Made by a program: the position numbers and the translations under genes. Shown in pieces: positions 841 through 62,000 of a stretch of 64,000 bases of DNA. This DNA is from Amoebophrya sp. A120. Lineage: Eukaryota > Protista > Dinoflagellata. The stretch spans positions 5,802,859 to 5,866,858 of the forward strand of contig CAJINV010000002.1 in assembly GCA_905178155.1 (NCBI GenBank), given 5' to 3'. The notes under the pieces are model-generated. The model had not been told where the DNA came from. It saw nothing but the letters and a program-made list of their open reading frames with translations, and searched no databases. Each line of letters begins with the position of its first letter. Within the stretch, counting starts at the first letter, position 1.

Positions 841-3800
841 ATGACGACGCCAACAAATAACACTTCCGCCACCGCCGCCATGGAGGAAACCGAAGCGCAG
901 GCCGCCCAGCTCGACGAGGAGATGCGGGAAAAGCAGCAGCGCATCCGCGCATTTGCGCGCCACGATTCCATGGACCGCAACCGCATGGAGGAACTGTCGC
1001 AAACCGTGTCCGATAGGGACTTGAACAAGAGTCAGATGAACACGAGCGACGGCGATCGACACAGCGAGAGAGATCTTCACGACAACTCGCTGACTGTGCA
1101 TGATCAGGAGCCGCCAGATCTGACGAAGCTTCCGTTGGAAGAACGGCGAATCAGCATGGGCAGCGACAACGAGCTTGTGCGGGACTTCCACGAAAAGGTA
1201 GGCCGAAGGGGCACACCTGGCTACTACCACTCCATGTCCTCGGTTGGGCAAATCCTGTACGGCTCCAGCCCCTCCTCCCCGAGCGTGTTCCCGCGGTTGT
1301 CGAATTTTCTCAGCGCTCTGACCACGCGGCCGCGCGCAACTTCGATCGTCTCCTCGGTCGCAACGCCTGTGAACGGGAAGGGCGGCGACATTGCCGTGAT
1401 GGAAACCGTGGAGCAAAACGTTTCGGTTTTGCCGATGAGCAAAGGCACGACGATGTTGACGAGCGGCGGGGAGATGAGAACTAGTACAACCAGTAGCGCG
1501 CCGCCCGCTGGGATGAATAGAGTTCGATCTGCGCCGGCATCTACTTCTTCCAAGAAGAAAGCACACGATGACGATCTGATCGGGAAGAATTTGCTGCTTA
1601 CTGCGGTAGGAGACGTCTCAAACAAACCTACTGATGCGGATCGGAAAACCACATCACAGACCATCGCTAAGATGCAGCTCCCAGCGACGTTTATTGCAGG
1701 AGCTCCTTCTTCAGACGGAAACAGCATGATTCCGGGGGCCGTGAATCAAAATATGATCAAACGAGACGACAAGGATATTCTCAACGCCGTTCCCTCCGCC
1801 CCGACTATTTTGGTGAATGGCTCAGAGTACCACACGACCCAGCAGCAAGAAGATGACGTCAAAGACAATTCAGTGGTCGTCAATGTCGGGGATTCTTCAG
1901 ATGGTAACCCTACAACTTTCAGCAACATGCAACTCAACAAAAACACCAAGTCTCTCTCCTCCGATCTCAAAACACACGTCGAGACAGCCTCCGTTCGTTC
2001 GAAAAACACGCTTCTGTCCGCACCACAGAGCGGATCTGGCACGACAGCAGGAAACACGAATTCTGATGCCAATAAATTCTCGACCTCCACGACCAGCAAT
2101 CGGCTCTCCGCGATTACGAACCGATCGAGCATGGTTTCCGTGACTAGCACCACTTTAGGTAGGTTGGAGAACTTGGTGACCACGTTTTTGGGTTCGATGA
2201 ATTTTGGAACACAACGGCGGGACAGTGGAAACCGGAAGTCGTCGCGATTTGGTAAAAATGGTGCAGCTCTCGACTGCGTTTTGGAGGATGATAGCTACGG
2301 GGAACCACGACAAATAATACCTGGACTGGAAAGGAGAAACGAATTGGAAGACGCCGGCTTAGCAGCTGCTCCATTGAAGGAAAATCTAGACAGGCAAGAC
2401 GAAGACTTCCTTGCAGGCACAACAAATCCGTCAAGCGGAAATAAACAAACCAATGCCAAACCGAACATTCACGCTCGCCAATCCGCCGCGTTACACCGCA
2501 GCTACAAAGCCACGCGACAAAGTTCCTGGCTGGCGCTATTGCCGCAGACGAGATCCTGGGTCAAGATGAAGTTCGACAACAGTTGGCAAAGGTCCACAAC
2601 TTTGTCGCAGGACTTTGACCTACCGGAAGGGCTGCAAAATAACGGAGTAGGCGATAGGAGCAATAAGTCCTCGCCCCGAGACGACGGATCGGGGTCAAGG
2701 TCCGGGCGTAGCTTCGGCTTTTTCTCAAGAGCGACGAGGAAAGACCGGGATTCGTTCCTTCAGTCCACTTCCACAGCGTTAAGCTACAACGCGAAGTTTT
2801 TCTGCGTCAATTGCGCGCCGGTGATTTACTTGCTCAAATCTCTGTTCCACATGTTCATGAACTTTCTGCAAAAGCTCGTCTACTTCCTCTGCAGCTACGA
2901 AACCGAGCAGGAATTGTTAAAATGGCAGGCGTGGTGGGAGAAGACGTTTCGGCGCTGGTACGAAAACGTGGAGAAAACGAGTGAGCACACCGTGCATAAA
3001 GAGAAGCTGTTGCATATGGAAGCGTCAGGATTGAAATCGTCAAAGTTGAAATAACTTGTAATGCATAAAATCGATACCAGTTGGAAGCCCAATTTCTAAG
3101 TGGTGCATGACAAATTTTCCGAGCACCGGAATCCAATCTGTCATGCTGTTTGGGCACAGACGACTGCTTTTGTCATGCTACTTTAACGGCTCTACTTCAA
3201 ACCCTAAACAGGCCGCCAGTCGGCTTCACTTGCCATCCCGGCAAGACAGGCAATTCATGCCTTGCATTTTATGCATGCCAAATCATTTCAACATTGTCGA
3301 TTTCAAACCTGACGCTTCGATATTGCACTCCCTCAGGTCGGAGATCTACGACAGCAAGACCCGATACAGCATTTACGACGTGTTTGAGCCGGTGACGATT
3401 TCGCAGTCACAGTATTCGACATCGTATTCAAAAAAAAAATACCATCGCAATCACTTTTGCACAATACAAAAATTTTCGTCATGCGCAAAAATGCATCACA
3501 GTCAAGAGTCATAGGCGATTTCCCTTTGTATTTTTGCAATACAAGAAAAATTTGTCATGCGGGGCAAACTTCTGATGCAAAACCTCCTAAATGTGATTGT
3601 GATGGTGTTTTTTTCTAGGATACATCGTCCTCTTCGAGTACTAACAAAAACGGTTCAAATCGGAACAACAGAAACAGCAAAGCTGCGAACAACGGAAATA
3701 AAGGTAGCAATGTCCGTTCCGGCCAGTCCGTGGCCTCCGGTGCCCGTTCGGCCTCTTCGAAGTCTCGTTGCAGCCTCGCTTCCAACCCGTCCGGAGGCGA

Positions 3801-6800
3801 GGAGCAGAATTACCAACACCAAGACGACCCGACTGAAAATTTCTTTGCCCGGAACCGGGCGTTGTCAAGACTCTCTATGTTTGCAAACCACGTGAACTCG
3901 ATCATTGCCGCGTGGAGCTTCATTTTGGGCACTGGGCTGATGGTGTTCTGGGATTTCATGCTGTGTGCGCAGATCGCGACGTTGCTGAAACTGGATTTGT
4001 TCCTCGACGCGGCGTACGTGCTTCTCGGACCAATTCTTTGCCTGCGCACGACGGTTTTGAACGTCTTGCGAGGGGTGGAAGTTGTGGGGCCGCCGCGGCT
4101 GATCATGAAGTTGCAAATCTCTGACTCTACCTGGTGGATGGACATGTTTTCCTGCGTTCTGTGGCCCTACCTGTTTTACTACGAAGACAACATGATCAAA
4201 CACGACCATTACCAGAGCGACCACTACCACAGCAACAGCGGTGGGGCGGACGGCGCCGGCGGCGCAAACATCGTGATCGTTTTGTCACTGTTGAAGCTGG
4301 TCCGGATGTGGCGGTTGGCAAGAGACCCGACCTACATGCTGGTGGCGTGCCGGACGTGGAACACGGGGAGGTTGGGCCGGCTGGTTCTGCTGATTTTGCT
4401 TTTCGGACACTTCTGCGGCGCGATTTGGTTTTACGTCACGGACAAAGAGAAAACCGTGCTGCAAATCGTGTCCCGGGACTCGATTGAATTTGCGGATTAC
4501 TACACCGATAGTAGTACTTCTGCCAGCACAACAAGCCTTCATATTTCCAACGAGTACCTGAAGGAACAGCTGTCCTTCTACGATCTGTACGCCTACTCCC
4601 TGCAGCACGGAATGATCATGTTCCTCGGCAGGATGAATTCCACCGGGAACTCCCCCGGGGAAAATTTACTTTTCGCCTTCGTTGCTCCGTATCCTGAGTA
4701 AAAACGTACCCACACCAGAGTCAAGATGGAAAATCTGCTAGACAAATCCACAAGCTTTGGCTGTTTTGCATGACAAATTCGGACTCGTAGTGTAGTGCTG
4801 TTTGAGCGTGCTCAGCAGCATTACAGATCTAGTCTCTCATGCTGATTGGAGCATGACAAATTTCAAAACAACATTAGAGAATGCTCCTCATGCGGCTCCG
4901 CATGAGAAACATTTTAAGCATGCAGATTTGCATTACAACTCTGGCGTGGGTACGTTTTTACATAGGATACCCCGGTTGGGATCATCATTCAGTCCGTGAT
5001 CTTCAGCAAAATGTCAATGATGTACATGTATAAAATGCAAATATGTCTGGGTCTGGAACAAGAGTGTAACTTGTCATGCTACATCTGGATCGTGGAAAAA
5101 CTTGTGTTGCATGATTACCAAAAGAGGTCCACTTTTGAACAAGTTTAGAGGCAGTTTCTCGTGCAGGAAAGGCATGGTAGAGATCTCACAGAACCTGTCA
5201 TGCTAGGCAGTGCATGCCAGACCGCGTGGGTCATGGAAAACCTGCATAACAAACTTGCATTCTTCCAGACCCAGACACTCTTGCACTTGATAACATGGCG
5301 CAAGACCAGCACATAGTGCGCCAGCAACAACTCCTCGTGGATCTCCGGGCTTCCATGAAGATGCTGCGGTTGCTATCAAAAGGAAAAATCCCCCCTCCCC
5401 ACACTGAACAGGTATGCTTCGTCTAAAAATTTGTGATGCTGATTTGTGACCACAAATCCTGTCTCTCTTGCCAGAGGGCAAACGCAGAGACCCCGCCACG
5501 ACATACAGGCGATTTGTAATGCTGCAAGGCCTATAGGGCAGCAGTCTGCCATGCTAGGCCCCTACACCAAGAGACCCCCCCTTAGGCTTACGATCTGCGT
5601 GCAGTCCTTTACTGCAAGACAAATGTGATTTGTGTACTCAAATACCGCAACACAAATTTCGTTTTCGATATGGGGAGGGGGGATTTTTCATTTTGAAAGG
5701 TGCCGTTGACGTTGCGGTCGAGGATTCTGTCTTTCTTCACCTACCAGCGGGTTATGCATTGCAAATATGTCCGGGTCTGCACGGCTCCGAACTTGTGATG
5801 TGAATTGCGGATCGTGCAAAGATTTGTGTTGCATGACTGGCAACAGGTGCTCACTACTTCTGGCCATGCTGAGAGGGTATTTCTCATGCAGAATAAGTAG
5901 GCATCACTGAGGGGCTGCAGAACCTGTGATGCTAGGACCCGCATTCCAGATTTGAGGACGCTAGGAGAAACTGCATGACAAAAATCTGCATTCTTCCAGA
6001 CCCAGACATATTTGCATTTGATATGGGTCCACAGAAACCAAGACTTTCTCGGCGTCCTCCACAGTTCCGGCGGGGGGCAGAGCCAGCAGCTGAAGTGGCA
6101 GCTGGCTTTGACACTGTATCGGGATTTGCTCGACCCCGACGTCGTGGGTGGCTTCTGTTTGCCGACCAGTAGCTTCGCAGCCTTGCAGGCAATCTTGCTC
6201 GCTCTGAAGGACGAAATTTGCCTCCCCGGGGACTACATCTGCAAGGAGGGGGACGAGGGAACGGGGATGTACTTCTTGCTAAAAGGGGAGTTGATTGTGA
6301 GCTCGAAGGGCGAAACGCTAGCGGTTCTGCAGAAGGGCCAGTTTTTCGGCGATCTGAGCTTGTTAACGGGGTTGCGACGGACGGCCTCGGTGCGGGCGAA
6401 CACGTTTTGCACTTTGGCTTTCCTTTCCAAACAAGCGATGGCTCCGATCTTGCAGAAGTATCCGAGTCAAATGGAGTTGATGGCCTCGGTGTTTCGAAAG
6501 ACGGTGATTGGCATGGGAGGGGGCAAACCGCCACCTGGAGGTGGGCCACGACAGGGTAGTAACAGTCAGAACCCCACGGGTGCCGCTGGACGGAGTAACC
6601 CGTCGTCGAATGAGAACTACGTTTCCGGGCAGCAGTCGCACTCAGGAGCACCGTCGGGAAGTAGAGCAGGTTTGTCTTCTGGTGGACAGCAGAAAAACAA
6701 GAACCAGAGCAAGCAAATGCACAACCAGATGCCACAAGTTGTAAACCCCAACATCCCGTCGTGGCGCAAATCGCAAATGCGCACGCAGTATCAAATGCAA

Positions 6801-9800
6801 AAATGTCTGGGTCTGGAAGAATGCAAGTTTGTCATGCTTGTCTGGCATGACTAGAAAATCTGTGTTTCATAGGTACGAAAGAGCCATCTTAACTGCCATG
6901 CAAAGAGGCAGTGCGCCATGCGGAATGCATAAGACATGGCAGCCACAAAATTTGTGATGCATAGCTGCGTATTGCGGCACGTCTATCATTCACTTTTAGC
7001 ATTACAAGTTTCCAGACCCAGACATATTTGCAATCCACACGCAGATGCAGGACCAGATCCAGCAAAAGTCGAAGCAGTTTTGCATCGACCCGAATCTCTA
7101 CTCTAACAAAGATACCTGGGTGGAGCGGGAGCTGTGGCAGCGGTGCGAATTGATGAGTGAGGAAAGTTCGGAAGGCAGCGGTAGCTCGGATGAACAATCG
7201 GAGGAAGAAGACTCGGACGAGAGCGATCACACTGAAGACGAGGACGATGATGTTCATGACAACGACCGCAGTCAAACCGAGTGCAGCCGAACCCAGGACT
7301 CCGAAGAGTCGCCTTACTCGGTTGAAACTTCGGAGACGTTTCCCAAAGCGAGGAACGGGAGAGGAGGACGACAAAGGGCTGCGAATTATCGCAACAATGA
7401 TAGTACTGACCAAACATCTGGCTACAGAACCAGCGGAACAAACGGTAGTCACCAGGGGTCCGAGAGGAGCGGCACTGGTCCTACTGCAACTCGGGGTGAA
7501 CAAAGTAGAAATCACAACGATTACAATTCATCACAGCTGGTGAACCGTTTGAAAACCTTCCAGTCTGTTCAAACTTGCGATTTGGAGTCTGGGGATGAGG
7601 TCTGGGACCCGAATGCCGATACGGATTCGGAAAACACCAGCGGCTCTGCGTCTGAAGGTGCAAATGAGGAGGACGAAAAAGAGGACAAAATGAACAGCAC
7701 GATTAATTCCAAGTCCTCCAAGCCTTCGAACGCCACCACGTCCCATTCCCACCGCCAGCACTACCAGGCCCTGCAAACCTTCGCGACGCACGCGGTGGTT
7801 GTGAGCAGAGAAACCACGAAAGACAGCACAGCGGTAGGAGCCGATGTAGAAGCGGACAACGCCAATAGTTCGCCAACCCGGAAGCAGGCGAAAAACAAAA
7901 AAAGACGCCTCTCTGGGCAGTCGGAAAGAAGGGTGAGGAAAATGTCGCAGCAGTCGAAGCTGTCCATGCGGTCCTCGGTGCGGACAGGCAATAGCAGTAT
8001 CGCGGATTCCAACATTCGACGGATTCGGGCGAGAGAAAAAGAGGGCTGGGCGGGGATCATAAAGAAAAGTGCGGGTCGGTCCGGGTCGAATCAAGAGCCT
8101 CTGGATGATCAGCTTTCACTGGACGAGGACGATCACCCGCTGCAGAGGAGGCTGAGTCACGACAGTCTCTGCTCCGAACTGATGCAGTTCAAGGATAACG
8201 TCTGCTCGCGGCATGCGCGGCACGCGAGGCGGATGAGCAATCCGTATCCGGAGGATGCGGGGTATGAACCAGTGTATGGTGGTGACCATGCGCCAGTTCT
8301 TAACCACACAAGAACTACTTCTACAGGGAACAAGACTCACAGTACGAAATCGAGCCCGAAAATGATGAAGGGTAGCAGATCTTTTGGCACCAGTAGAACG
8401 ACCAAGAATTTGGGACGACAACAGCAGAACAATAATAACGCGGCCCTGCTTTACAACCGGCCGACTTTGGAAAAGAGCACATCGGAATTAACGACCGAGC
8501 AGATTCCGGCGGATCAACTTCTGCATCCGCAACCGGTTCTTTCGCCTATCCCGGGGGAGACGTTGGTGCCCTTCCAGGAGCAGCTGCATCTGTTTCCGAG
8601 AGCAACGACCGATAATTCCTGTAGTTCAGGGAAGAAACAGCTACATCAGGCCCAGGGAGAAACTACTACGGAACTAATGCAGCAAGGGCCTATGCCTGCC
8701 GCGCCTCCTGCTGCTCTGACCCTGCCGCTCCGCCAAACGCAAGCCAGGTCTCAAGTCGCGGAGTCGGAAGTTGTACCGACTAAGGGCGGGGCGGGCCAAG
8801 CGTTAGTGGAAACACTAAACCCGACAGTTGATGTACTAGACCACGAAGATGTTGCAGCTCCGGTACTAGAGAACGACGATGGGCAGCAGGAGAAAAAGCG
8901 ACAGCAAGCTTCCCCCGTAGAACAGTCACCGGCGAGAAGTATCACCAGCAGCAGGAAAGCGAAGGACAGAATGATGTTGAAAAAGAAGAACAATTTTGAT
9001 GCTCAAGAAGTAGAACATTCTGGCCATCCAGGTGTTGTTTCCGCGTCCGCACCTCCCGCTATCCCCCCTATCCTCGAAGACATTGACGTGCAGCACCGCA
9101 CCGCGTCGGGGAAGTTGGTCAGATTTGATCTGCGAAAAACCAAACACACATCCAGCTCGGAATCAAACATCCGCAGTACGCAAATGGGAGGGGTTGTAGG
9201 CAACAAGGAAGGCAGCGGTTTGCACACCAACCACAGCTCGGGTAACCGCATGAGTGACAGCACGCCCGGTGAACTACGGACCAACAGCAGTTCCGAGGTG
9301 CCGGAAAGAACGAATACGTCTTCGGAGGTGGATCTACTTTCCGCAGCGGTGTCCGGGTTCAATACAACCAGTGCGGGAAGCTCGGTTCAGAACTTTCCGA
9401 CGCAGGAGGGGGATCATGATGACCTTCGACGTGTGGGTCGTGAGAGCAAAAGCAATCAGGATGTTGAGCAGGATCATTTTACATTCGCAGGAACTACAGG
9501 AGCCATGATGCCTGTGGTGCCAACTGTCGCTGGAGAAAACGCGACCAACGCGCGCGCTTTCAATGTTCCAGTCCGCGAGGACAGTGTCAGTGCGTCGAAG
9601 CCGAGTAGCACTGTGGGCAACACCTCGGACGACATGATTTCCTGGTCGTCGAAAAAGTCCAAAAGGTCGTCCCGCTCTCACCGAATAAAGGACCACAGGC
9701 GGGGGAGTGGTGGTAAAAGCGAGCGGAAGGAAGATACTCTCAGAGAGGACGCAAAAAACTCACCAAGAAATACAGTTGCGGATACACAAGTAAAACAGCA

Positions 9801-18460: not shown

Positions 18461-18464
18461 AATA

Positions 18465-29962: not shown

Positions 29963-30269
29963 CTTCAGATTTTTGGACGTAAAATAGACTTACTGCCGTG
30001 GTTTTATTTGCTGGATAACACAACAAAACGAAAAGAACCAAATCAAGGCTAATACTGAAAAGTAGAGCTGCTTGTTGTCCTCATTTTCGTTTTCAAGACG
30101 AACCAAACTGCGGGAGAAGGGGCCAACAGAATAAAGGAAATTGATATTAGAAGCACTTTGAAGATCATATGGATCGTCTGTTGTACACTCATTCTCAAAT
30201 GAAAGGTAAGCTGGCGAAACGAAAGAATCGATCGAGCACGAAAAAATCAACGAGGCCCCTGGGATAACG

Positions 30270-48613: not shown

Positions 48614-48888
48614 GATGATGATGTTGGCAGTGTGCCCTTTAGCGGACTGCTGCGTGCTACTCCCTCCTCCAGCCCGAGAGCAGCTGAACGCCGATCCTCT
48701 ATGGCGAACAGTTGATCTATACCTTAAGGGCGCGGCTGTTATGAGGCTAGGTTTTTCCGGACTTGGGTGTGGGCCTCACACTCACACACGTCGTTCAGAG
48801 GGGACCAAAAACGCACACACTGTAGCACTCTGCATTAGTGTAGGGCGAAAAATAAATACTATTTAGCAGTGTCTAATGATCTTCTTCC

Positions 48889-50310
48889 TTAGGCGATGTA
48901 GTTGTCGACGCCTCCCTCCTTGTTAAACTCGCCCACACCCTCCATGGTGGGGGTGAGCCCCTTCTTGCCCAACTTCCACTGGGCCGGGCACACCTGCTTC
49001 TTGCCCTCCGCAATGGACTATCAAGTGTAACAGTGTCTGGGTCTGGAACATTTCTAGATTTGTCATGCATATTTCCATGACCCATGATGTCTGTGATGCA
49101 TGCCGTAGCATCACAGATTTTTAGAGCGCTTCCTCATACCTATTCCGCATGACAAATGCCATCTCCGTGGAGCACAAAATCTACTCCTCTTACTGGTCAT
49201 GCAATACAAATGTTTTTCGAATCCAGAGACAGCATCACAAGTTTAGATTCTTCCAGACCCAGACATTTTTACATTTGATATGGACTTCTCGTGGAACTGC
49301 AACGCGTCCAACAGACGCAGCGGCTCGTCCAAGTTGCCTGTAGTTGTGATGCAGTCACGCATTACAAATTTTTTTCTTAAGGCAAGTTCGCATATACAAA
49401 ATGCATTTCTCATGCTGAGGAAATTTGTAATGCATTTATACGAGTACGATACTTTTGCAGTTCATATATTTTTCAGTTGTTTCGCAAAAGCATCGCTCTC
49501 GCACCGGGAGGAACTACGACATTCGTCTAAATTTCTCACAAGATGTTGGACAAAAAATGGAGTTTGCCATACTGAAAAAAACCACACAGATGAACGGTCT
49601 ATCTGTTATGCAATATGCCAGTCAACAGGAGCTAAGCCTAAATCTAATAAATTCAAATACGGCCCAGGGGATCGCAGTTCTTGCTCTCCGCACGGACGAT
49701 GCCCTCCTTGTCGATGAGGAACACACCCCGGGCGCAGAGGCCATCACCCTGCAAAACGTCGTAGGCGGCGGCGATCTCCTTCGTTTTGTCCCCGATCATG
49801 GGATACCTGTGACAAGGGTTTTCACATAAAATTCGTTGCATCATTTTTTTTTGTCCACCACCACTGCTGCTTCGCTATGCCTTTGGCTGGTGCACTCCAC
49901 AACCATAGTTCATCAAGGCAGATCTTTTATCTTTTTTTTCGAGCAGGCATCATTAAGGGCGCTTCTTTATACCATGCCATAAAAAAAATATCTTAAGCAG
50001 AGGTCAAAAATTTTTAGTACTGGATGTCACAGCCGAGTCCTCCGAGCTCCTTGGGCAGCAGCTTCCACCCCTTGTGTGCGTGGTGGGTGTCCGTGGAGAC
50101 GCCCAAGATTTCGCATCCGCGCTTCTGGAACTCCGGGAGCAGCTTGTTGAAGCCCGGCACCTCGGAGGCGCACACGAAGGTAAAGTCCGCGGGCCAGAAG
50201 AAGACAATCACATACTTCCCCTTGTAACTGGACAGCGTCACCTCCTGAAAACTGTTGTCCGGCATGCAAGCCAGGCAGGTGAAATCCGGAGCGGCCTGAT
50301 CGATCAACAT
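48889..50310 (-). CDS. Typical 2-Cys peroxiredoxin (AhpC/Prx1 class), 205 aa
   Basis: Exons 50310-50021, 49806-49661, 49337-49281, 49013-48889; FFWPADFTFVCASE, GGLG, RGVFLID, GRNLDEPLRLLDALQ, VCPAQWK; two GT-AG introns plus one introner. Confidence 0.95.
49019..49280. mobile_element. Introner, family A
   Basis: Exact DR TGGAC. Confidence 0.9.
49347..49466. mobile_element. Truncated family-H introner inside GT-AG intron 49338-49660
   Basis: Matches the body and right TIR of the 35646 copy; left TIR absent. Confidence 0.75.
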
Positions 50311-51284
50311 CTTTGCAGAGTGGTGAGAACTACTGTTGCGATGTTGAACAAGGTTGTCAGATCTGTGCTTCTCAGAACAAATATTCGTTTATTTTGCTGA
50401 AAAAAACAAAAGCGCCACTACGTTTTTTTGAGATAATGCTCTTAATTTCAAGAAATTGGATTCGGTCGTGGCTTTAGGACTTTTTGGAAAAAAATTGTCG
50501 CGACTATCGTCTCTTGAGAAAAAAATGTTTTCCGAGTTTGTTTCGACTGCGATTCGTTGGAGACACAAGTAGATTGATTCGTTTGGAGACAGAAGTAGAT
50601 TGCTTCGTTCGGAGACAGAAAAAACGATCGGAGCAATTCGATTTGCATTATGCCAAGAGCAGGGCTAGAGTAGAGAGTTTATTTCAGATCCCACAGACGA
50701 TGAAAGAAAAAGAATGTTTTGTTTTCCTCCAACAGAGTGTAGATCAAGCAATTTCTCATCTGTTTCTTGATTTTGGTCTTGTCAAGATGGTGCTGTTGAT
50801 TTCGATCCCGTGTATTGATGATCCTGGCGGCAATTTTTTGAACTTGCATTAGGTTGACCTGCTGGAGCAGAGGTCCGAAAACTTCTAGTTTCTTACCGCA
50901 CGAATATAAGTACACTGATTCAGGTCCATTTCACAGGACAGAGACTCCGCGCTCTTCGCTATTCTCAATCGCGGAACAGGACGACGCATGTGCATCTTCA
51001 AACGTGCACGAATTTGCTTCCCCGCCACAGTCTCATCGGCGCCTAGGCCTCTTGCTCTCTTCTCTTGTTCGAGTACTTACGGAAGAAAATGATTGTGTTC
51101 ATCAAAGCGAAAAGATAAGTGTGTCAAAAATCGCTTCTTCCACTGCAAACAGTGTGAGTAGGTACTTACTGCGCAATTCAAGTGACGTGGACTTATTGGT
51201 TTGTAAAAGAACAATGAAGAAGATTTTTAATTATTGTCAGTGGGATTACAATGAAGTTCTTCTCAACAGCGCCCTCCTGTCTCC

Positions 51285-53886
51285 TTACGCCCGCTCTTTC
51301 GAGCCCGCTCGCAACCTTTTCGGCACAAATTTCTTCCATGTCAACGGAGAGCGCTCGTCGTCATCGGAGTTCTCCTCACGCTGCCGGACCTGCGACTGCG
51401 ACCTGGACTTAGATTTGCTGCGACTGCGCTGTCGCTTCGAGGATGTGGCAGCAGTGGCGCCGGGCTTGCGCTCCTTGCACAGGAAACACTCGCTACGCAA
51501 AGCGAAGTTTACCACCCCGCACTTAGCGTTGGGCTGGCGTTTTTTCATCGATTCGTTGATATATCATGATTGGATCCCCGTCTATCATTTAGTGAACATC
51601 ATGTCGTGTTTATTCAATAATGGTCGGGACAAAAGCATGCACACGACTACTTCTTACGTGCACCGAATAGACGAAAGGCAAAAGCAATACGCAGTCCCAG
51701 TCTCCAGGCAGGCGCTTCCCGAACTTTCCTTTGCCCTTTTCTATTACACCTAAATCGGGCCACTGCTCGCGGGCCCTCTTCCACTCGCCTTCTCTGCAGA
51801 CGAGCGGACCCCACCCTCCCTTCCCGCGACGACTACTACGGCCCCGTCGGCCGCGGCTGTCGTTTCGGGGTGACGACCTGCGTCTTGGCGCTGGATGGCT
51901 GCTTGATGTTCTCTTGTCCTTCTCCCTACTTTCGTTGTCCTTAGTACTGCCATTATCTTCATGCCCTACGCCGTCCCCGGCCCCCCGAACACGTTCGTAG
52001 ATACTGGCCTTGTAGTCGCGTTTTTTGGGAGGTGGACTTCCGCTTCGCGAGCGACTTTTGATGCGGTCGCGGCTAGTTTTCTGTTCTTTGCGGTCCTCAC
52101 GACCGCTCCGTGGAGGTCCGCGGCTGTGCCGACGCGGTCCCTTGCCATAGCCGTAATCTACTCTGTCGTGGAGCCGCCAATCCCGACCGCTGTACCAGTC
52201 GTCATAACGGCGCCCACTGCGGTGCCAGTCGTCGTAGTTATAGCCGCGGTAGCCTGGTTGCTCTCTGTAGTTTCCGCTGTAGTGGTAGGTATTCTTCGCA
52301 AACGTCGCATTCCTTTTGGCGCGTTGGGAGGACGTGGTGCGGCTACGGGCAGACCGGTTGCTCTTGTTGCTCTTGCTCTTCGTCGTCCGCGGAGACGTTT
52401 TTTCCCGCTTTATTTTTTCCGCGGAAAGTTCTTTTGTCTTGCTATTTGAGCCGGTGCTTTTCTTGCTTCTCGCACTGTGGTCCCCACGACGAGCAGCGCC
52501 CTCACTTTTCTTGCTCTTCTCACTCTCCCTACTTTTACTTCTGTTCTCCTCATCGTCCCTGCTTGGAGAAGGCGAGAAGGGGTTGTTTTCGTTCTTTTTT
52601 CGCTTCGGCTTCGGGGTGGGCGTTTTCTCTTGCTTCTTGGGAGACGGAGACAAGGAGTCAGATTTCTTTCTGGACTTCTTCGATCTGGACGATGAAGCTA
52701 CTTTCTCTGCTGCGCGCACTGGACTAGGACTTCGATCGCCAGCAGGTCTTTTGTTCTTCGACGAGGCCTCCGGACTTTTCTTTTCCACCGGAGACGCACT
52801 GCGCTGTCGCTTGCGGCTGTCCGAACTACCTTTTCTTCTTTTGTCCCCTCCCCGAGCTCCTGGACTCGCACTGCTTTTCCGACGGGCTGCTCGTCCGCGC
52901 GATCGTGAGCGTCCGCGCGATCGGGAGCGTCCGCGACTGTGGTAGCGCTTGTCCGAGGAGGGCCGGCCGCCAGCGCTGCCCTTCCCCTTGCCCTGGTAAT
53001 CGTACCAGTTGGTGAAGCATCCTGTGCAAAAGTATCGCACTGCACTCGTACTAATTGCAGATATGCATGACAAATCCAACTTTCTACCTGAAATAGCATG
53101 ACAAATTGATTTTTTTTCTTGGGAAAATTTGTAATGCGTTTTATACTAGTACGATACTTTTGCAATGCATATGAAGCCGGAGGGCTTCACAAACTTCTCC
53201 TCACCCTTGGCCACCACCGCCTTCCGGTTCTTTTCGGCGCCGCAGCGAAAACATTCGTTGCGCGACGCGAAGTTGTGCTTGCCGCAACTCGAGCAGTACC
53301 AATCGCCCGCCTGGGTTTCGACAGTCATGTTTTAGGAGTCGCTCTAATCTCCTTATCTTATTCTGTTTAACAACAACATCGAACACACATGCCCAAGGTC
53401 ATAATCATGACTACACGAATGAATATCGAAGAGGTGTATTCGAAAAAAAAACTCCGATCGAGAATTTCAATTTCACCACGAGATAGTAGAACAATATTAG
53501 TCTTGTACCCGCTCCACGTACTGCTTGAATTTTCCCTTTCCCTTCCCATCCTCACTGTCCCGACGGTCCTTGTCACTGTCGTAGAAATCTGCCTTCCACC
53601 GGTCGGAATCTGGCTCGTGGAGGTCGCCTTTAGCCCGCTCACCATCTCTGCTCCTGTCACGGTCTTTCCCCTTGCCCCAGCCGCCCCCGCCGTGCGCGGC
53701 ATGATCCGAGTTGTACTTTCCCTTCCCCTTGGAAGTTGTCCAGGTGTCCGGGTGGTCGCACTCGTGCGCCTCGACGATCCGCCCGTCGGCGCGGGTGGCG
53801 TTACACTTGTAGCAAAAGTCGCGGCTGGCGAAACAAAGCACACCACACTTGCCGCAATACCAGTCCCCTGGCTTGACGGCGGGCAT
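51285..53886 (-). CDS. RanBP2-type zinc-finger, RS-rich RNA-binding protein (~701 aa, 3 fingers)
   Basis: GDWYCGKC...CYKC, GDWYCSSC...NFASRNECFRC, GDWDC|PNAKC..NFALRSECFLC; RS repeats; GT-AG intron 51534-51690; first junction (~53328-53508) is non-canonical and uncertain. Confidence 0.8.
53018..53171. mobile_element. Introner, family H
   Basis: Exact DR TGAAG; left end CA instead of TA. Confidence 0.9.
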
Positions 53887-54795
53887 GTTGACTGAGCAAG
53901 CTATTGCTGTCGTTAAGTTTTTTTCAAACAATCGATCACCAAACCGTTGCGGACGAACGCTTTTCTTTTGCTTATACTTCAGATAGCAGTTCTTGTTGTG
54001 CCACGACCGCAGCCAACATGAAACCGTCGTTCATACCCACACGGCATCTTTTGACTTTTGTAGTTTTTCGCTATTTTTTTGTGAACGAAAAATTGATGCA
54101 GCTCTTTTGGAAAATTATAGCATGGAGAAGGAAAATGAGAGACACAGAGTGAACGTCGTGATAGCCGACTTTAGAGAGCAAAGTGGTAAAGACCGCCTTC
54201 GCCGGAAAAGTGAAAATGGTAGTGCACCTTCCTGGAAAAAGCAGAAAAAAAGATCTTTTTATTTCGTTGTGCCTCGCTGCGTCGCCTCAGTACGCCACAG
54301 GTGCGGAAATCGTAGTGGAAATAGTGCTGCCAAAACGACAGCTTGAAAGAATGTTTTACCTTTACATTCGGGATAGGCAACGCATTTCGAGTTTGAAATA
54401 GACGCTGCAAGGCGAGCTCATCGTTTTTGTATTGTGATCGCGGTCATAGGCTTTCTTTTTGCAGAGTGAGAGAGAGATGTACAGGATGCCCATGCAGACT
54501 TCTTAAGGAAAATGAAAAACGCTGCGAGTACAACTCTGAAATCACTTTTCTTCTTCTCTTTTCTTGCGCCGTGGTGTCTAGCTTCGTCTTGTTCCTTGCA
54601 TCATCATACGAGAGTTGTTGTAATTTTGGTTTAGTGTTGAGGATGTGTCTACGTGCTATGGTTCTATCGGTTTATGGTCGTGATTCTTTCGAATGTCTTT
54701 TCTTCCAAATTCCTGCTCTTGTAGTTAGAATCAGGAGATGCAACATCAAAGGTCCATTCGTAAACTCAAAGCAAGTACCGGACAAAAATCAGAAC

Positions 54796-56917
54796 TCACG
54801 CCCCGACACCAGCTGCGCCCGAGCTCAGATTATCGGGCGGACTGTTCACCAAAAACTCATCGGAATTTCCTCCCACACTGGAGCTTTCCGTTTTTCCGAA
54901 ATTTTTGTTCTGCACGCGCTGCTGCATCTGCTTCACATAGTGAATTAAATTCTGTAACCCGTAGAGGTAGCCGTCGTCTTTTTCTGCATTTTTGGAGCAT
55001 TTTTTGTCCTTGGAGGTCTTGCAGCTTGCTTCGTCTTTGCTTGCTGGCTTGGTCTCTGTTGCTGTTCTTTTCTCCGCGACTACATCTTCCGTTTTCGTCT
55101 TGTCACTCTCCCGGGTTGCAGTTGCGCCCTCTTCAGCACAGTTATCTACCTCACTGTCCTCGTCAAGTTCAAATTTGCTCATGTCGATCTGGAACGCGTG
55201 CGCGAAGTCGATCAGGTAGACCCAGAAGGTGTTTACCGGATCCGCCATGTCGTACACCAGCAGCAAGGAACTGGAAAACAGCTTCCAGCGCGGGGGCAGT
55301 AGAGAAGAAGGTCGATTCTTTTCGCAAATAACTTGTGTTGCGTCACGCAGCTCATGCGCAACACAACTCGTAGCTCCTGCACCCACTTCCTCGTCCTGTT
55401 GATGTTGTTCCTGCTGGTGCGCATCATGCTTTTTATCCGACGTTACGGTTGCACCGGTCGTCGTTCCGCCCGCAGCAGAAGTTGCTGACACGACCTCACT
55501 CTCCTCCCCTGACACGTCCTTGCTGATTACCTCCCCGGACGTCGGGGATTCTAAAATTTCGTAGATCTCCTCGAGTAGCATCAAAAACTTCTGCAGCATC
55601 TTCGAGCGCAGTTCCAACTGCAATTTCTCATCCGTTTCATCCGGAATGTGCACGTCATGGTGCACGACCTCCTGCGCGACCGGCTTCTCGCCATTTAACA
55701 TCACCCCGGCTGCGTGCAGACCGTGCTGATCTTGATCTTGGACTACGACCCCTTTCTTCAGCGACACGGCTTCGATGTACTTGAAAAACAGCTCCAGGCC
55801 GTGCAGCACCGTCTTCTCGTTCAGCCGAAGACCCCACTTGCTGTCTCTCTTACTCACCCGGAAAATCTTTTCTAGACGGTTGGAAAGATCATGTTTGTGA
55901 CTAGGACCTTCTTCTTCTGCTGTCCCTTTGCCTTGGCCTGTTTCAACACCGTCATTAGCTGAGCTGCTGGTGATGTCCTCGACGGCCGCAGTACTAGCTT
56001 CGGGTGAAGATGTAGTCTTCTCTCTGTCAGCGCTAGCAACTTCCTTGCATTGTTGTACTGTGCCTGGATCTTCGTTTTTGAAATGCAGTCGCATCACTTT
56101 TGTGTATTTCATCCCCACCAGTCGAAATCCCAACTTCTCTTGCAGTGGGTACTTTTCGATGCACTTCTTGCGCTTTGACGCGCTCGCCAGCGGGTCGTAG
56201 GTTTGCTGTCCAATTTTGATGTCGCAGACACAGGGCAACAGCATGTTATGCGTCACGTCCTGCAATACCAAGTACCGGTTGGGCAACCGCTTCTGGTGCG
56301 GGCCAGATTTGTTCCGTAAATGGTCCGCGAAATACCGGTTACTCCCGGAGGTGCCCCGTTTATTCATTTTGCTGAAATCCAAAGCGCCCGAACCTCCTGT
56401 GTTGCCTGTGGTCGCGACATTGTTCAGAAAAGGCGGGATCCCGATCCGGCTGTTGTGCGGTTCGATGGACGAAAAGCCTGGATGCGACCGGACGCGTTCC
56501 ACAGGCATGGATCTTGCGGACCGGAGCAATTGTTGCCGGTACGCAGAGTTGGAGCTCGCGGCGAATATGGTGCTTGGGTCTACGACAACCGGGGGGGAAT
56601 GAACCCCCGATCGGAGCGCAGATTTCATCAGTGCGGAATTTTTTGCGGCGGCGATCAAGCCCCCCGAAGAGCCGTGCGCGGAGTGAAGCAAAGACTGGTC
56701 GAGGTTAGACCGGGAAAACGACCCCATCCTGATTGACGGAGTAGAGAGCGGCGAATCCGTCGCGTCCGAATGCTGCCCGTCCTCTTCGTCTCTGTACATG
56801 GTCTGAACCACAAGTGTGCTGTTCTGCAACTCGTCCTGTTCTATGCACTGCAAAGGAAACAAATGATGTAGCTCCTGGGTCTCCACCCGAAAGAATGTAT
56901 GAAGATCGCGCCCGGAG
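54796..56917 (-). CDS. Inositol polyphosphate kinase (IPK/IPMK superfamily) catalytic exon
   Basis: YLVLQDVT, PCVCDIKIG (PxxxDxKxG), LGFRLVGM, SSSLLLVYD, LIDFAH, DDGYLYGLQNL; no ATG or N-lobe at the 5' end, so upstream exons are expected. Confidence 0.9.
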
Positions 56918-56922
56918 GGCGA

Positions 56923-58131
56923 TATTGGTAACCAAATGCGTGCGCGAAAATCTAACCAGCGCGCGGGCCGCGCTTTCGCCGCGCGGCTGCCACCACCATT
57001 TCTTTTTAATTAGAACCCCGCTTCTTCTTCTTGAGTCGCGGGCCGCAGTTGTGCTCGCGGCCCTTATCTACTGTCGCCCGCGGCGGCCCGCGGGCTCCTG
57101 CGATAAGCATTGAAGGCGAAGTCCGGCCATCTCGCAGCGGGGCATCCTTTCGATGCCCCTTGAAAAACATGCAATTTTTTGGAGGCCACTATGCCGTCGC
57201 GCATAATGTTATGCACGACGGCAAGCTGGCTCGGAAAAAACACAAATTTCAAAAAGTTTCGCAATTTTTGTCATTTTCGGCAGCCCTTCCGGGCCACCAA
57301 AGTCGTCCATTTCAGATGCGGCGGAGGTCCCGAATTGGTGCCCACAACACCGGCCAAATGGGGATTTTGTAACATGCCTCCGCCCGATGCCAGCGCCGTT
57401 TTTTTTTTCCAATCGCGAGGGTATGACGCAAGTGCGCGCCCCCCGAACCGCCCTCGGTGGCCAGTTTGTAATGCGGCGTAGCGATTTCGTTTTTTTGCAT
57501 TTTCTTCTTGTTTTTCCGGAGACTTAGCGGCGGAAGGCCTCCGCACATTTTCCAAGTTCCCCTCCGGGCGGCGTCTGCCCATCCTGTTTGCAATTCGCAA
57601 AATTTTCCGTTTTTTTCCTTTTTTCCGGGTACCCATCGGGCGGGCGGTTCTGCACAAAATTCGACGACGCCCTTCCCCCGCCTACAGTCGGCATCTTTTT
57701 CGCGTTTTTTTCCCGCTTTTTTTCGCCGTGGCATCGGCCCTGGGTCTCCGAACAGGTCCGAAAGCCTGAATCGGCGACGAGCATCGCACCGAGGATTCGA
57801 AATTTTGCGTAGTCTTTTTTTCGGATACAGCTGCGGCCCAGAGGGAAAAACGCTGATTTTTCAGCTTCCCCCGATGCTCCGGCGCGTTTTTTCTCTGTTT
57901 TTTGCGGATGGCCGCACTTTGCTTCCGCGCACCTTCCGCGGAGCTTCCCCGCACCTGTATCCCCCGACTTCCCTGACCTTCACGCCTCCCGGCGGTTGCC
58001 CTATATGGTAACGGCAACTGCCTTCGCGCTGCGTTTGCTAAGCAATATCGCAAGAGCGCAGAGCGCGCGCGCCGGCTTCGTGGGCCGGCGCGCGCTCTGC
58101 GCGCGCGCGCGCACGCATTTGGTTACCAGAC
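56923..58131. mobile_element. 1.2-kb GC-rich IR-bounded segment, probable large intron of the IPK gene
   Basis: TGGTAACCAAATGCGTGCGCG at 56926-56946 and its reverse complement ending at 58128. Confidence 0.7.
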
Positions 58132-58499
58132 TACTGCGGACGTCGAATCATGAAACAAAAATGCACAAAGCGCGGCACAGAGACATAAGACTGTTGCGCA
58201 TTTTTGCGCGCGATCCTTCAAAACAATTGTCATGGAAGCCGTTCTACTAGAGTGCGTAGTTTCTCTATTATTCTTAGAGATATTACTGGCAAAGTCAAAG
58301 TTTCCAGACCCCGATATCACATGGTAAGGATTTCCCTTGCATATGTTGCTGCTGTCGTAAAGCGTCGAGCCGGCGCTGCGTCCCGGTCCAACTGCTTCCA
58401 CCACTGCTTCTCCGTGCTGCGATATGGAGGGAGAATGTTTTTCCAGTCAGTACTTATATAAAGTCTTTCACGTTCATGTTCATCTTCACTTCACCGTCG

Positions 58500-58905
58500 C
58501 GGAAAAAAATCGAAAAGAAAATTTGGCGCAATCTAAAAAATTCGCGATCCCTGCCGCAAAATCACACAAAAAATAAGTGCGGCTCGACCTATGTGAGGGC
58601 GGCTTGGTAGCTTGGCGTGCGGCAGAGATCGGAACAGAAATTCAGCCAAATTTTGTAAATTGGCGATACTTTCGCGCTGCAAAATGCAAAGAAAAAACCG
58701 AAAAAGCTGCGCCTCGCGTTTGAGGACGGCTTGGTAGCTCGGCGGGCGGACGAAGAACGAAAAGAAAATTTTGCAAAAATTTTGAAAATTGGCGATACTT
58801 TCGCGCTGCAAAATGACAAGAAAAACCCGAAAAAGCTGCGCTTCGCGTTTGAGGGCGGCTTGGTAGCTCGGCGGGCGGGCAAGAACGAAAAAGAAATTTT
58901 GCAAT
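58500..58905. repeat. ~128-bp tandem repeat, about 3 copies
   Basis: Units start GAGGRCGGCTTGGTAGCT at 58595, 58722, 58851, plus a diverged partial unit upstream. Confidence 0.85.
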
Positions 58906-59060
58906 CAATGAGATAGATGTACTCGACAATACTTTCCATGAGACCGACTTTGAACCCCAAAAGTAAGTAAGTACTTACAACCTGTGGGACCAAAGAAAGC
59001 GCCTGTGGCTTAAGAACACCCGGCTTGACTCAAAAAACTCTCCTGCCATCATCTGCATAC

Positions 59061-62000
59061 TTCGATGAGGAATGTGACAAAACCGGTCGGTTTTTCATCG
59101 CGATGTCATAGCTCGTTTGGTGCGAAGACACCGATAGCGGATCTAGCAGGTAACGCCGTTCCCGCCGGTATTGAGAGGAAAAATCCCCCCTCCCCATATT
59201 GAAAAAGCATGCTTTCGAAAATTTGTGTTGCTGATTTGAGGTCACGAATCACATTTGTTTTGCAAGAAGGCAAGGGCAGAAGCTTCCGCCCCATTACGGA
59301 GGCGATTCGTCATGCTGTTGGGCCTCAAGGGAATCCGTTTGCCATGCTGAACAACTAGACGCATACGCCCCTACCTAGCCTGGGGACCTGACTGCAATGC
59401 TTTCCTGCAATACAAAGCTGATTTGTGTACTCAAATCCAGCATCAGAAGTTTCGTTTTGATATGGGGACGGGGGATTTTTCCTTTTGATAGCCGGGACGG
59501 TGAGTTTTGTAGCTCGTCAACATCGTTTTTTATCCCACGGAAAAAGACCGACAGGTCATATTTGTAATGCAAAAAAAAATACACAGGAAAATCTGTCATG
59601 GGCGAGGCCATAACATCCTGTTTAGGGCATGCAATACAGATTTTTTTGTCTATTTATTTTTGCATTACAAATATGACCTGTCGGTCTTTTTCTGGGGGAT
59701 ATTTTTCACACTGTTCTCATCGATCATGCTGGTTGTACAACTCCCATGGAGACCATCCTGGTGTTCCCCCGCTGGGTTCTTATCCTTATCCCCCTGCGGC
59801 ACACCCCCGCCAACGTTATCCAGGAGTCCCTCCGGCAATAACAACGGCGTTTGGCGCTTCAGATCCTCGTCACTCAGCAGCGTTGCCTGCGAATCCCTAG
59901 CGGTTCCGAGGTCCGACAAAGCGTTTGCGCGCGAAGCAGTTCCCGCCGTGGCACCGCCGTAGGTGGTTGCGGCAGACTTTGCTTTGCTGCTCGTCGCGGA
60001 GGAGGGTTGCTCTTCAGAGAGTCGTGGGTCGTTTGGGTTATTCATTTCACGACCAAGGTCGCCACTAGTGAATTGGTGAATCTGATCTACATCTTTCTGT
60101 CTGTTCAGCATCATCTGCTCGATACTGTTTTCGTAAGTGTGTACTACCATTTGCCCTTGCGCTTTCTCCTTCGAACCCACCGGACTGTGTTGTTCGCTCT
60201 CCGTGTTGCGATCCTGATCCTCGTTCCGATCAGTTGTGGTTTCCATGTGGTCCTGTTGTCCTTGTTCTTCGGCAAGCTCGTTCAATAGATCCAATTCGTC
60301 TTGCAACTCTTGCAAATCTTGGTCGGACGCATATCCAGGAAAAAACACCCACCCCCATCCATTTTTTGCATGACAAACTACACTGCATGCAATTTATGCA
60401 TGACAAATTGGATGGGGATGCGTGTTTTTTCCTGGATAACGCAGGGCTACTCAACACCAGCGATTCCACGACGGATTCCTGATCCGAATTGTTGTTCCAG
60501 CCCCGGGTGTATCAAGTGCAAAAATGTCTGGGTCTGGAAGAATGCAACTTGTGATGCTGCGTCTGCATTATCCAAAAATCTGTATTGCATGAACAGCAAA
60601 AGAGGCCTGCTTTGGCCACGGCGGGAGGGCATTTTTCATGCGGTATAGGCATCAGAACGCCCTCACAATATCTGTGATGCTAGGGCATGCATCGCAGACA
60701 TCAGGAGTCACGCAAAATGTGCATGACAAACCTTGCATCCTTCATCCAGACCCAGACACTTTTGCATTTGATAGGGTGCCCATGCTTGTGGTCCAGTTTC
60801 TCCCCCCTCGGAATTCGTCGAATTCCTGATTGTAGTAATCGTCGGAGACTATCACACAGCAAAAAGCAGGCAGGTCATGTAATCCCAAAAAAAAGACATA
60901 GACAACAAAAAATCTGTATTGCGTGCCCTAAACAGCATGCTATCAGGTCGCCCATGGCCACAGATTCTCTGTTCATTTATTTTCGCATTACAAATTATTT
61001 GCCCTGCCTGCTTTTTTCTCTGGGATAGAGGAGGTCGGGAACAGTTCCGCCTCCAGGGAGGGAATGGCGAGGTTGACGTTGGTGGCAACAATGCCACCAG
61101 GATCCTCTTCACCAGCACCAGATCTCCCGTGAATTGAATCCGTCTCCTGATAATTGCTTTCATCTTCACTGGAGGTGGTCTTCGATTTCGTCTCCTCGCG
61201 TTTCGCCATATTGTTATCACTTTCTTGATGTGGTACTACGAACATCGGGTTCTCGACTCGGTGCAACTCCATACTGGATGCTGTGTTCTTATGGCGTTCT
61301 CAAATGTTACATTCTCAACTGTTACATGATTTGCCATGCAAAATTCCGACCAGAATCGACACGATCAAGCTCCTGCTTCGCATGACAAATTCCCGAAGGT
61401 CCAAACAGGATGAGAATCTGCGCCAAATCTGTCATGCAAAGGGCGCAGTCTTCCCCCTTTCAGTTTTGCCATTCTTGCATCGCAAATCCATGTAACAGTT
61501 GAGAATGTAACAGTTGAGAACGCCATAGTTCTTCTTGTCGTGAAGCTCTGCGCTCGTCCCAGGACTGCTTTTCTTATCGCTGTCTCTGTTGTTCTCGGCT
61601 GCAGCACTTTTGGCGAGTATCAAAGGACTGCGCTGAGCAGGAGCAGAACCACTGCCAGCCCCGCTTTTGATGTTCTCACTCTTCGCGCTTTGCGGACTTC
61701 TACTGTTTTTCGAGGAGTTCTTGCCGCTCGTCGGCAACCTCATCGTACTAGCCAGACGTGTCGAGGATTTGTGAAAGAAGTCATCCGCCAGGCCTTCGGG
61801 GGTCCTATTTTTGTCTTCTTCACGACCAGCTGCGCCACCATCTTCTTGCTCCTTCAGCTCGAAATCCAACTGATTTGGCTTCAGCACATCCTCTTCTAAG
61901 TCGTGCAAGTTGTCTGGCTCGGTGTCCTATGGATTGCAAAAGTGTCTGGGTCTGGAAGAATGCAACTTGTGATGCTATTTTTGGAATCTAAAAAAATCTG

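What the first reader, a model, noticed from the sequence alone, without database searches (positions are those of the whole stretch)
3015..61027. Same element family is removable in either orientation
Seen: family B copies at 3015 and 14443 are reverse complements, both in + genes. Family D copies at 4690 (+ gene) and 43173 (- gene) have the same genomic orientation. Family A at 22564/23245 and family I at 59531/60850 are opposed within a single gene. Inference: no strand-specific branch point or polypyrimidine tract is needed; the TIR stem or symmetric motifs define the intron.
Basis: partly seen in the sequence, partly recalled or inferred. Interest (0 to 1): 0.75.

Follow-up and report, generated by a model that had tools for sequence, protein, structure and literature searches.

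The report
Two-way transposon introns, fixed cut
In the plankton parasite Amoebophrya A120, small transposon-like inserts already published in 2021 sit inside genes facing either way, and copies of both orientations are missing from transcript contigs or protein records although almost none has GT-AG ends, likely because a relaxed splicing machine reads their mirror-image ends and cuts at fixed distances from them.

Summary
Observation confirmed. All four named pairs are opposed relative to their transcripts. The window holds 48 TAT...ATA elements, nearly all with 5-bp target duplications; 5 of 7 families occur both ways (family A 14:8, p=0.29). Removing element plus 5 nt restores long ORFs. 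RNA-contig joints show removal of 14443 and 22564; contig lengths fit removal of 43173, 43534 and 59531. Three public A120 proteins match my splice across 18 junctions. Copies 3015 and 4690 rest on ORF repair alone. None of 47 elements reads GT..AG. The inference is partly supported: interior strand does not matter, but each strand carries the same terminal U-run and often a branch-like motif, so branching is not excluded. A pure stem model is weakened: no G-U bias, and the cut is lopsided (1 nt before TAT, 4 after ATA, if one rule holds). These are the published A120 introners (PMC7789003). Two-way introners are known elsewhere, but with GT/GC/GA-AG ends. This scan noted the same features before on other DNA of this genome.

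The parts
3015..3322 (+). Family B element, perfect 5-bp duplication, in the cNMP-channel-like gene
   Evidence: removal inferred from ORF repair only; no RNA joint was listed
14443..15682 (+). Family B element in the opposite orientation, 1240 nt, with nested cargo of about 920 nt
   Evidence: RNA-contig joint 14436 to 15682 skips 1245 nt in 4 of 4 runs, 2 samples; orientation
4690..4969 (+). Family D element, duplication 4 of 5
   Evidence: ORF repair; orientation
43173..43451 (-). Family D element, opposite to 4690, 25084 and 25435 relative to transcription
   Evidence: X1 contig leaves the genome at 43167 and has exactly the 83 further letters expected
25435..25678 (-). Family D element, reverse complement of 43173, also in a - gene; duplication 4 of 5
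   Evidence: junction gap-free in 5 of 5 homologs and in public protein P0001; conserved Phe requires the upstream copy to be kept
25084..25355 (-). Family D-like element
22564..22838 (-). Family A element, minority orientation, inside the CPW_WPC domain
   Evidence: RNA-contig joint 22558 to 22839 skips 280 nt in 4 of 4 runs; domain covered from profile position 1 to 58 in P0007
23245..23483 (-). Family A element, majority orientation, same gene as 22564
   Evidence: public protein P0007 identical to the splice model; contig continues unbroken (indirect)
22873..23182 (-). Family C element between 22564 and 23245; its orientation within family C is weakly determined
   Evidence: loose end at 22872 equals the sequence from 23188 in 4 of 4 runs
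59531..59701 (-). Family I element; duplication is AAAAA on the transcript, so no G is available at either border
   Evidence: X1 contig gap of 213 nt equals the prediction of 213; P0008
60850..61027 (-). Family I element, opposite orientation, duplication 3 of 5
   Evidence: P0008 identical to the splice model at this junction for k>=2; contig support indirect
43534..43777 (-). Family A element, majority orientation
   Evidence: X1 contig length 1159 fits the spliced form with a 30-nt overlap
25721..25996 (-). Family A element, minority orientation
   Evidence: gap-free junction in 4 of 4 homologs that cover it and in P0001
26808..27044 (-). Family A element, minority orientation
   Evidence: P0001; homologs are gap-free here but divergent
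14033..14222 (+). Aged TAT...ATA element (arms match 10 of 11) that reads as a GT..AG intron, 14032-14226
   Evidence: RNA joint skips 195 nt = element + 5; only registers k=3 or k=4 fit
56842..58343 (-). 1502-nt TAT...ATA element with GC-rich cargo
   Evidence: contig piece ends at 56836, which excludes k=0; P0008
58423..59059 (-). 637-nt TAT...ATA element with a decayed duplication
   Evidence: 642-nt removal fits contig length and frame, whereas a GT..AG reading of 644 nt would not; P0008 requires k>=4
5029..7039 (+). Four more elements in the channel-like gene: A at 5029, 5753 and 6789; C at 5374
26066..40631 (-). Further elements: A at 28733, 29116, 29460, 31381, 32146, 33542, 34060, 34394, 40070, 40370; E at 26066, 35870; F at 35646; singletons at 26535, 28226, 34864, 38255
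43846..62189 (-). Further elements: F at 43846, 53018; A at 45144, 49019, 60510, 61928; C at 59169; E at 61290; singleton at 60332
3425..3622 (+). Singleton TAT...ATA element with a perfect duplication

Best explanation
These are the MITE-like introner elements of Amoebophrya A120: they insert with a 5-bp duplication in either orientation and are missing, with one copy of the duplication, from RNA contigs or protein records in both orientations, likely because the host's spliceosome, relaxed at the GT and AG positions, reads the short motif that both ends share and likely cuts 1 nt before TAT and 4 nt after ATA. Shown: structure, both orientations, exact removal of element plus 5 nt, and absence of a GT..AG register. 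Inferred: a single fixed register, sequence reading of the ends rather than stem geometry alone, and the identity of the machinery. Because the arms are mirror images, either strand presents TAT-n7-AAA at the start and UUU-n7-AUA at the end. Polarity would then come from the machinery moving on the RNA, not from the element. The stem, predicted equally on both strands, would help bring the ends together. Any branch adenosine would lie in the shared end region or be loosely chosen.
For: Removal of element + 5 nt gives ORFs of 2648, 972, 959, 309, 292 and 1399 aa; removal of element + 0, 3, 4, 6 or 7 nt does not repair the multi-element genes of 2648, 972 and 959 aa. RNA joints of 1245 and 280 nt fix the offset at +5. 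Register k (nt of the upstream duplication kept in mRNA): k=3 or 4 from an RNA joint (14033); k>=1 from a contig end (56842); k>=2 from Phe in 5 of 5 homologs; k>=3 from P0001; k>=4 from P0008. Only k=4 satisfies all five. At k=4 the aged element 14033 is an ordinary GT..AG intron, which links both classes to one machine. Terminal TAT/ATA changed at 5 of 270 sites against 16 of 225 in the duplications (p=0.006). No G-U bias. Farhat et al. report nearly all spliceosomal proteins, U1 snRNA undetected in A120, and the same IR/DR layout in 15% of canonical A120 introns (PMC7789003).
Against: No lariat, branch point or spliceosome dependence was measured. At 5753, k=4 puts Arg where cyclic-nucleotide channels usually have Trp or another aromatic residue (conservation recalled, not tested; one search shows the R/W choice), which favours k=0 there. 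P0001, P0007 and P0008 are annotations of this same genome and may favour a GT border at 58423. Conservation of TAT is partly built into my detector. The ends are predicted to pair in 40 of 43 elements, so a stem role is not excluded. Farhat et al. describe splice sites as variable relative to the hairpin. RNA support comes from contigs of 2 samples in 1 study; the raw-read runs laid almost nothing.
Confidence: 0.6

Rival explanations
1. Stem-defined, spliceosome-independent removal, as proposed for euglenid nonconventional introns: the paired arms are recognised as a structure, and a nuclease and ligase join the exons.
For: Ends are predicted to pair (probability above 0.5 at positions 9-13) in 40 of 43 elements, equally on both strands (mean energy -92 kcal/mol each, p=0.98). 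No GT..AG register in 47 elements. U1 snRNA not detected (PMC7789003). Euglena uses a self-complementary CAG/CTG motif with unequal spacers (PMC12501133 abstract).
Against: No G-U excess among arm mismatches (23:27, 31:42, 44:55, 83:90). The outer arm is conserved as sequence, not as pairs. Element 25435 has a predicted end pairing of 0.09 yet is removed on protein evidence. Element 14033 is GT..AG at the same register.
Confidence: 0.22
2. Conventional-type, strand-specific interior signals: each orientation uses its own branch point and pyrimidine tract from the interior, and copies lacking them are purged.
For: Short branch-like words occur on both strands. Families E and F are 3:0 each in this window. 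Roy et al. report an orientation bias in two-way classes of Polarella.
Against: Family A is 14:8 (p=0.29). The motif near the 3' end is no better kept than its 5' mirror (29 vs 33 of 48), and pyrimidine content is the same on both strands (0.55 vs 0.57). No AG acceptor is available in 27 of 47 elements.
Confidence: 0.12
3. The joints are reverse-transcriptase template switches across a hairpin with direct repeats, or the elements are excised from DNA in part of the nuclei.
For: Hairpin plus short direct repeat is the recognised signature of such artefacts (recalled). The joints table of the DNA-like run X7 was cut (2025 rows not shown), so rare DNA excision is not excluded.
Against: 44 of 48 elements have stops in all three sense frames, yet conserved proteins run across the junctions. 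The 14443 joint lies on the same contig as four GT..AG joints in run X1. X7 contigs run from exons into elements at a flat depth of 43-47. The 14033 joint has almost no direct repeat.
Confidence: 0.05

Closest known systems
Amoebophrya sp. A120 introner elements (Farhat et al. 2021, PMC7789003; seen: abstract, sections 11, 12 and 16, passages of 5, 10 and 32, supplement text passages; figures not visible)
   Same: Same organism by database name. Same TAT + 7 nt + AAA inverted repeat, direct repeats at the borders, non-GT-AG ends, repeated families, about 240 nt.
   Different: The passages I saw do not treat element orientation ('orientation' refers to gene orientation there; 'strand' 0 hits), and the paper calls splice positions variable. 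Here both orientations are shown and one fixed register fits five constraints.
Two-way introners of Aureococcus anophagefferens and Polarella glacialis (Roy et al. preprint 10.1101/2020.10.14.339549, passages seen; Huff et al. 2016 not held, known here only through that preprint)
   Same: DNA-transposon introners with target duplications that form introns in either orientation.
   Different: Those carry or recruit GT/GC/GA and AG sites, and a bias to one orientation is noted. Here 0 of 47 elements can be read GT..AG, 1 GC..AG, and no bias is detectable in family A.
Euglenid nonconventional introns (PMC12501133 abstract and passages; PMC11282704 section 6)
   Same: No GT-AG, inverted repeats near the ends, self-complementary motif at unequal distances from the two cuts, probable MITE origin.
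   Different: Motif CAG/CTG with spacers of 3 and 5-6 nt and a purine at the exon start; excised as circles; hybrids with canonical ends are rare. Here the motif is TAT/ATA with inferred spacers 1 and 4, and a GT..AG hybrid is present.
Fritillaria borealis non-canonical introns (PMC11282704 section 6; 10.1101/2025.08.15.670264 passages)
   Same: MITE-derived introns with inverted repeats and duplications, removed by an adapted U2 spliceosome.
   Different: They have preferred end dinucleotides (AG-AC, AG-AT) and duplicated U2AF genes; here no terminal dinucleotide is fixed at the 3' cut.

Membership tests
Amoebophrya A120 introner elements | Inverted repeat of 8-20 nt or more starting TAT, 7 looser bases, then 3 or more A | tested here: met
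   TAT at the 5' end in 44 of 45 and ATA at the 3' end in 42 of 45; A at positions 11-13 in 38-43 of 45
Amoebophrya A120 introner elements | Direct repeat of 3-5 nt at the exon/intron borders | tested here: met
   5-bp duplication perfect in 31 of 45; 16 mismatches in 225 positions (35870 and 58423 left out)
Amoebophrya A120 introner elements | Removed from mRNA with non-GT-AG borders | tested here: met
   listed RNA-contig joints at 14443 and 22564, loose end at 22872; 0 of 47 GT..AG
Amoebophrya A120 introner elements | Repeated, multi-copy families in that genome | tested here: met
   7 families in the window; summed contig depth of 10^4-10^5 over elements in run X7; three window proteins 100% identical to A120 records
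MITE / non-autonomous TIR DNA transposon | Terminal inverted repeats, fixed-length target duplication, no coding capacity | tested here: met
   stops in all three sense frames in 44 of 48
MITE / non-autonomous TIR DNA transposon | A cognate transposase or autonomous partner | not tested
   no genome was held; the cargo of the three long elements was not searched against protein families; PMC7789003 found no transposase in A120
U2-type spliceosomal intron | GT (or GC) donor and AG acceptor | tested here: not met
   0 of 47 GT..AG and 1 of 47 GC..AG in any register; the later-found element 14033 is GT..AG
U2-type spliceosomal intron | Branch adenosine, lariat intermediate, snRNP dependence | not testable with these tools
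   needs lariat sequencing or inhibition; only a branch-like motif was counted
Euglenid nonconventional intron | N3-CDG ... CH'G-N5-6 followed by a purine | tested here: not met
   ends read TAT...ATA; the exon base after the 3' cut at k=4 is G or A in 31 of 46 and C or T in 15
Euglenid nonconventional intron | Excision as a full-length circle, pairing required | tested here: inconclusive
   pairing predicted in 40 of 43 but no G-U signature; circles not testable

The most novel reading that the evidence does not exclude
Amoebophrya A120 has a splicing mode with no donor or acceptor dinucleotide and no strand-specific interior signal: the machinery recognises the transposon end motif itself, on either strand, and cuts by ruler (1 nt before TAT, 4 nt after ATA), which removes exactly one target duplication. 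Any sequence placed between two such ends would be spliced out without a scar, making every exonic insertion of these transposons harmless in either orientation.
Probability: 0.45. Interest if true: 0.8.

Novelty: new variant of a known kind. Interest (0 to 1): 0.52.

Why it matters
How Amoebophrya removes more than 60% of its introns without GT-AG and apparently without U1 snRNA is an open question stated in PMC7789003. Orientation independence narrows the signal to the symmetric ends. The 1/4 register gives exact predicted cut sites for lariat mapping and minigenes. It would also explain how these elements can fill coding exons at such density: no insertion needs a lucky orientation or a lucky target sequence. 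The elements themselves are published, and two-way introners are known in other algae, so this is a sharper rule for a known system, not a new system.

Tried and rejected
No whole genome was held, so all counts are for one window. Raw-read runs X11 and X12 laid only 45 and 190 reads, nearly all partial, so splicing efficiency by orientation could not be measured. Laying the DNA-like run X7 swamped the joints table with repeat-to-repeat joints; only contig end points and lengths were usable there. The channel-like gene had low, patchy cover in X1-X4 and no joint was listed for 3015, 3425, 4690, 5029, 5374, 5753 or 6789; this is no evidence either way. A G just before TAT (GT mimic) occurs in 19 of 46 (p=0.048), but the mirror C is nearly as frequent (17-20 of 46), so I read it as a palindromic target preference, not donor selection. 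Family A 5' arms looked better conserved than 3' arms (51 vs 77 of 660, p=0.02), but this vanished on dropping one copy with an insertion (48 vs 61 of 630, p=0.23). A PDB search to test the Trp/Arg position at 5753 did not reach that residue. Removal of element + 0, 3, 4, 6 or 7 nt was rejected by frame in the multi-element genes; the 22415-23898 gene stays open under all offsets and does not discriminate. The genes at 37200-40800 and upstream of 35593 were not fully modelled, so removal of 35646, 35870 and 38255 is unassessed. Huff et al. 2016 could not be read. Literature searches found no paper stating orientation independence or a fixed register for Amoebophrya; subscription papers, the supplementary figures of PMC7789003 and bioRxiv supplements were not visible and may bear on this.
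Full report
What the window is. The window is eukaryotic DNA with long runs of co-oriented genes. Three of its proteins are 100% identical to records named Amoebophrya sp. A120. No whole genome was held, so every count below is for this window.

Anatomy. I found 48 elements that begin TAT and end ATA (or one change from it), nearly all flanked by a 5-bp direct repeat: 45 from the sequence, two more from RNA-contig lengths (56842-58343 and 58423-59059) and one hidden in a GT..AG intron (14033-14222). Most are 107-325 nt; three are 637, 1240 and 1502 nt. A strict detector gives 37 hits against a mean of 1.5 in 30 shuffles. The duplication is perfect in 31 of 45 elements (35870 and 58423 left out as irregular). 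44 of 48 elements have stops in all three sense frames.

Orientation. After trimming the arms, interiors fall into seven families, and the orientation calls are consistent in 157 of 157 strong pairs in family A. Relative to transcription the splits are A 14:8, B 1:1, C 2:1, D 3:1, I 1:1, E 3:0 and F 3:0. The orientation of C copy 22873 is weak, but 5374 versus 59169 is clear (190/95). Family A shows no significant bias (p=0.29).

Removal. Taking out each element plus 5 nt gives ORFs of 2648 aa (7 elements), 972 aa (6), 959 aa (4), 309 aa (6), 292 aa (4) and 1399 aa (9); offsets of 0, 3, 4, 6 and 7 do not repair the 2648, 972 and 959 aa genes. Contigs of runs X1-X4 (RNA by guess, but they carry GT..AG joints; 2 samples, 1 study) skip 1245 nt at 14443 and 280 nt at 22564 in 4 of 4 runs, and jump from 22872 to 23188. 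In one search the joints table was swamped by the DNA-like run, but X1 contig lengths fit exactly: 83 letters beyond 43167 (element 43173), 1159 letters across 43846 and 43534, and a 213-letter gap across 56842, 58423, 59169 and 59531. Public proteins P0001, P0007 and P0008 equal my splice models across 6, 3 and 9 junctions. These are annotations of the same genome, not independent data. Independent support comes from five homologs of P0001, which are gap-free at 25084 and 25435 (5 of 5) and at 25721 (4 of 4 that cover it), and from the CPW_WPC domain, which spans the 22564 junction. For B, 14443 is shown and 3015 rests on ORF repair. 4690 also rests on ORF repair. Efficiency was not measured.

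Signals. In the six registers allowed by the duplication, 0 of 47 elements read GT..AG, 1 reads GC..AG, 27 have no AG available and 13 have neither GT nor AG (12 after correcting the border of 25435 by hand). Across unrelated families the conserved arm positions are TAT (1-3), G9 and AAA (11-13); positions 4, 5 and 7 pair in only 49%, 60% and 36% of elements. TAT/ATA changed at 5 of 270 sites against 16 of 225 in the duplications (p=0.006), with some detector bias. Mismatches between arms show no excess of G-U over A-C on the transcribed strand, although the ends are predicted to pair in 40 of 43 elements, equally on both strands. A CAT-N-AC motif, which resembles a branch consensus (recalled), lies near the 3' end in 29 of 48 elements and as its mirror near the 5' end in 33 of 48; 19 lack it on the sense strand. 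It is therefore not a required strand-specific signal and may be a transposase site. A U-run 10-14 nt inside the end is part of the arm and present on both strands.

Register. Earlier notes of this scan suggested a cut 1 nt before TAT and 4 nt after ATA; I tested that here. With k as the number of upstream duplication bases kept, the RNA joint at 14033 allows only k=3 or 4, the contig end at 56836 excludes k=0, the Phe of HNCFGA in 5 of 5 homologs needs k>=2, P0001 needs k>=3 and P0008 needs k>=4. If one rule applies, it is k=4. One case points the other way: at 5753, k>=1 gives Arg where I recall an aromatic residue in channel C-linkers (not tested). At k=4 element 14033 is an ordinary GT..AG intron, and at 58423 the 642-nt removal is used although a GT..AG reading lies 2 nt away. 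A symmetric element cut asymmetrically implies that polarity comes from the machinery.

Mechanism. The most likely reading (0.6) is a relaxed U2-type spliceosome that reads the shared end motif and cuts by ruler, with the stem as a helper. A stem-defined nuclease-ligase route (0.22), strand-specific interior signals (0.12) and an artefact or DNA excision (0.05) are the rivals. The machinery is inferred, not shown.

Comparison with what is known. The elements are the A120 introners of Farhat et al. 2021 (PMC7789003). The passages I saw report the TAT-7-AAA repeat, direct repeats, missing U1 snRNA and variable splice positions, and do not address element orientation. Either-orientation intron formation is reported for Polarella and Aureococcus, with GT/GC/GA and AG sites (preprint 10.1101/2020.10.14.339549, passages). 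Gozashti et al. 2022 allowed opposite-orientation matches in their search (PMC9860276, passages); the 2025 paper describes a same-orientation filter (PMC12130899, passages). Euglena's rule is the closest analogue in logic (PMC12501133, abstract and passages). Six searches found no statement of orientation independence or a fixed register for Amoebophrya; figures and subscription papers were not visible.

Verdict. The system is published. Two-way removal without GT or AG, with a probable fixed 1/4 cut, is a variant that makes the open splicing question testable. The scan has recorded it at other places in this genome. Interest 0.52.

Noticed in passing
window 19331-20060: RNA contigs of X2-X4 skip 730 nt here. 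The stretch has no TAT...ATA arms and no GT..AG in its four registers on the - strand (GT..TG at best); my simple join did not extend the 570-aa ORF.
   Followed up: partly
window 14653-15603: About 920 nt of cargo inside the family B element, bounded by a 19-bp direct repeat; the enlarged 1240-nt element is still removed exactly.
   Followed up: partly
window 56842-58343 and 58423-59059: Two long elements with GC-rich or internally repeated cargo (58499-58904 has tandem copies); candidates for larger or autonomous relatives, not searched for coding capacity.
   Followed up: partly
window 35870-36099: Family E copy that has lost one terminal arm and is instead bounded by an 18-bp direct repeat; whether it is spliced is unknown.
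   Followed up: partly
window 49340-49467: Half of a family F element, with one arm only, near the 3' end of an apparent GT..AG intron of the peroxiredoxin gene.
   Followed up: no
window 48150-48613: Intergenic GC-rich element with 111-bp inverted arms and high summed depth in the DNA-like run; no TAT...ATA ends.
   Followed up: no
window 5748-5752 and 6024-6028: The duplication mismatch gives Trp (k=0) or Arg (k>=1) in the channel C-linker; the one case that may not fit the fixed register.
   Followed up: partly
window-wide: Target duplications lean to C at the first and G at the last position on the transcript (20 and 19 of 46), a palindromic preference. Almost all elements lie in coding exons and none of the 48 was found in the long intergenic stretches.
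   Followed up: partly
window 49249-49281: A few raw reads of X11, which otherwise hardly match the window, carry a family A arm with different flanks, so a related population seems to have the same element ends.
   Followed up: no
window 30270-30395; 62624-62685 and 63545-63606: A 62-bp tandem duplication and a 62-bp dispersed repeat in non-coding DNA.
   Followed up: no
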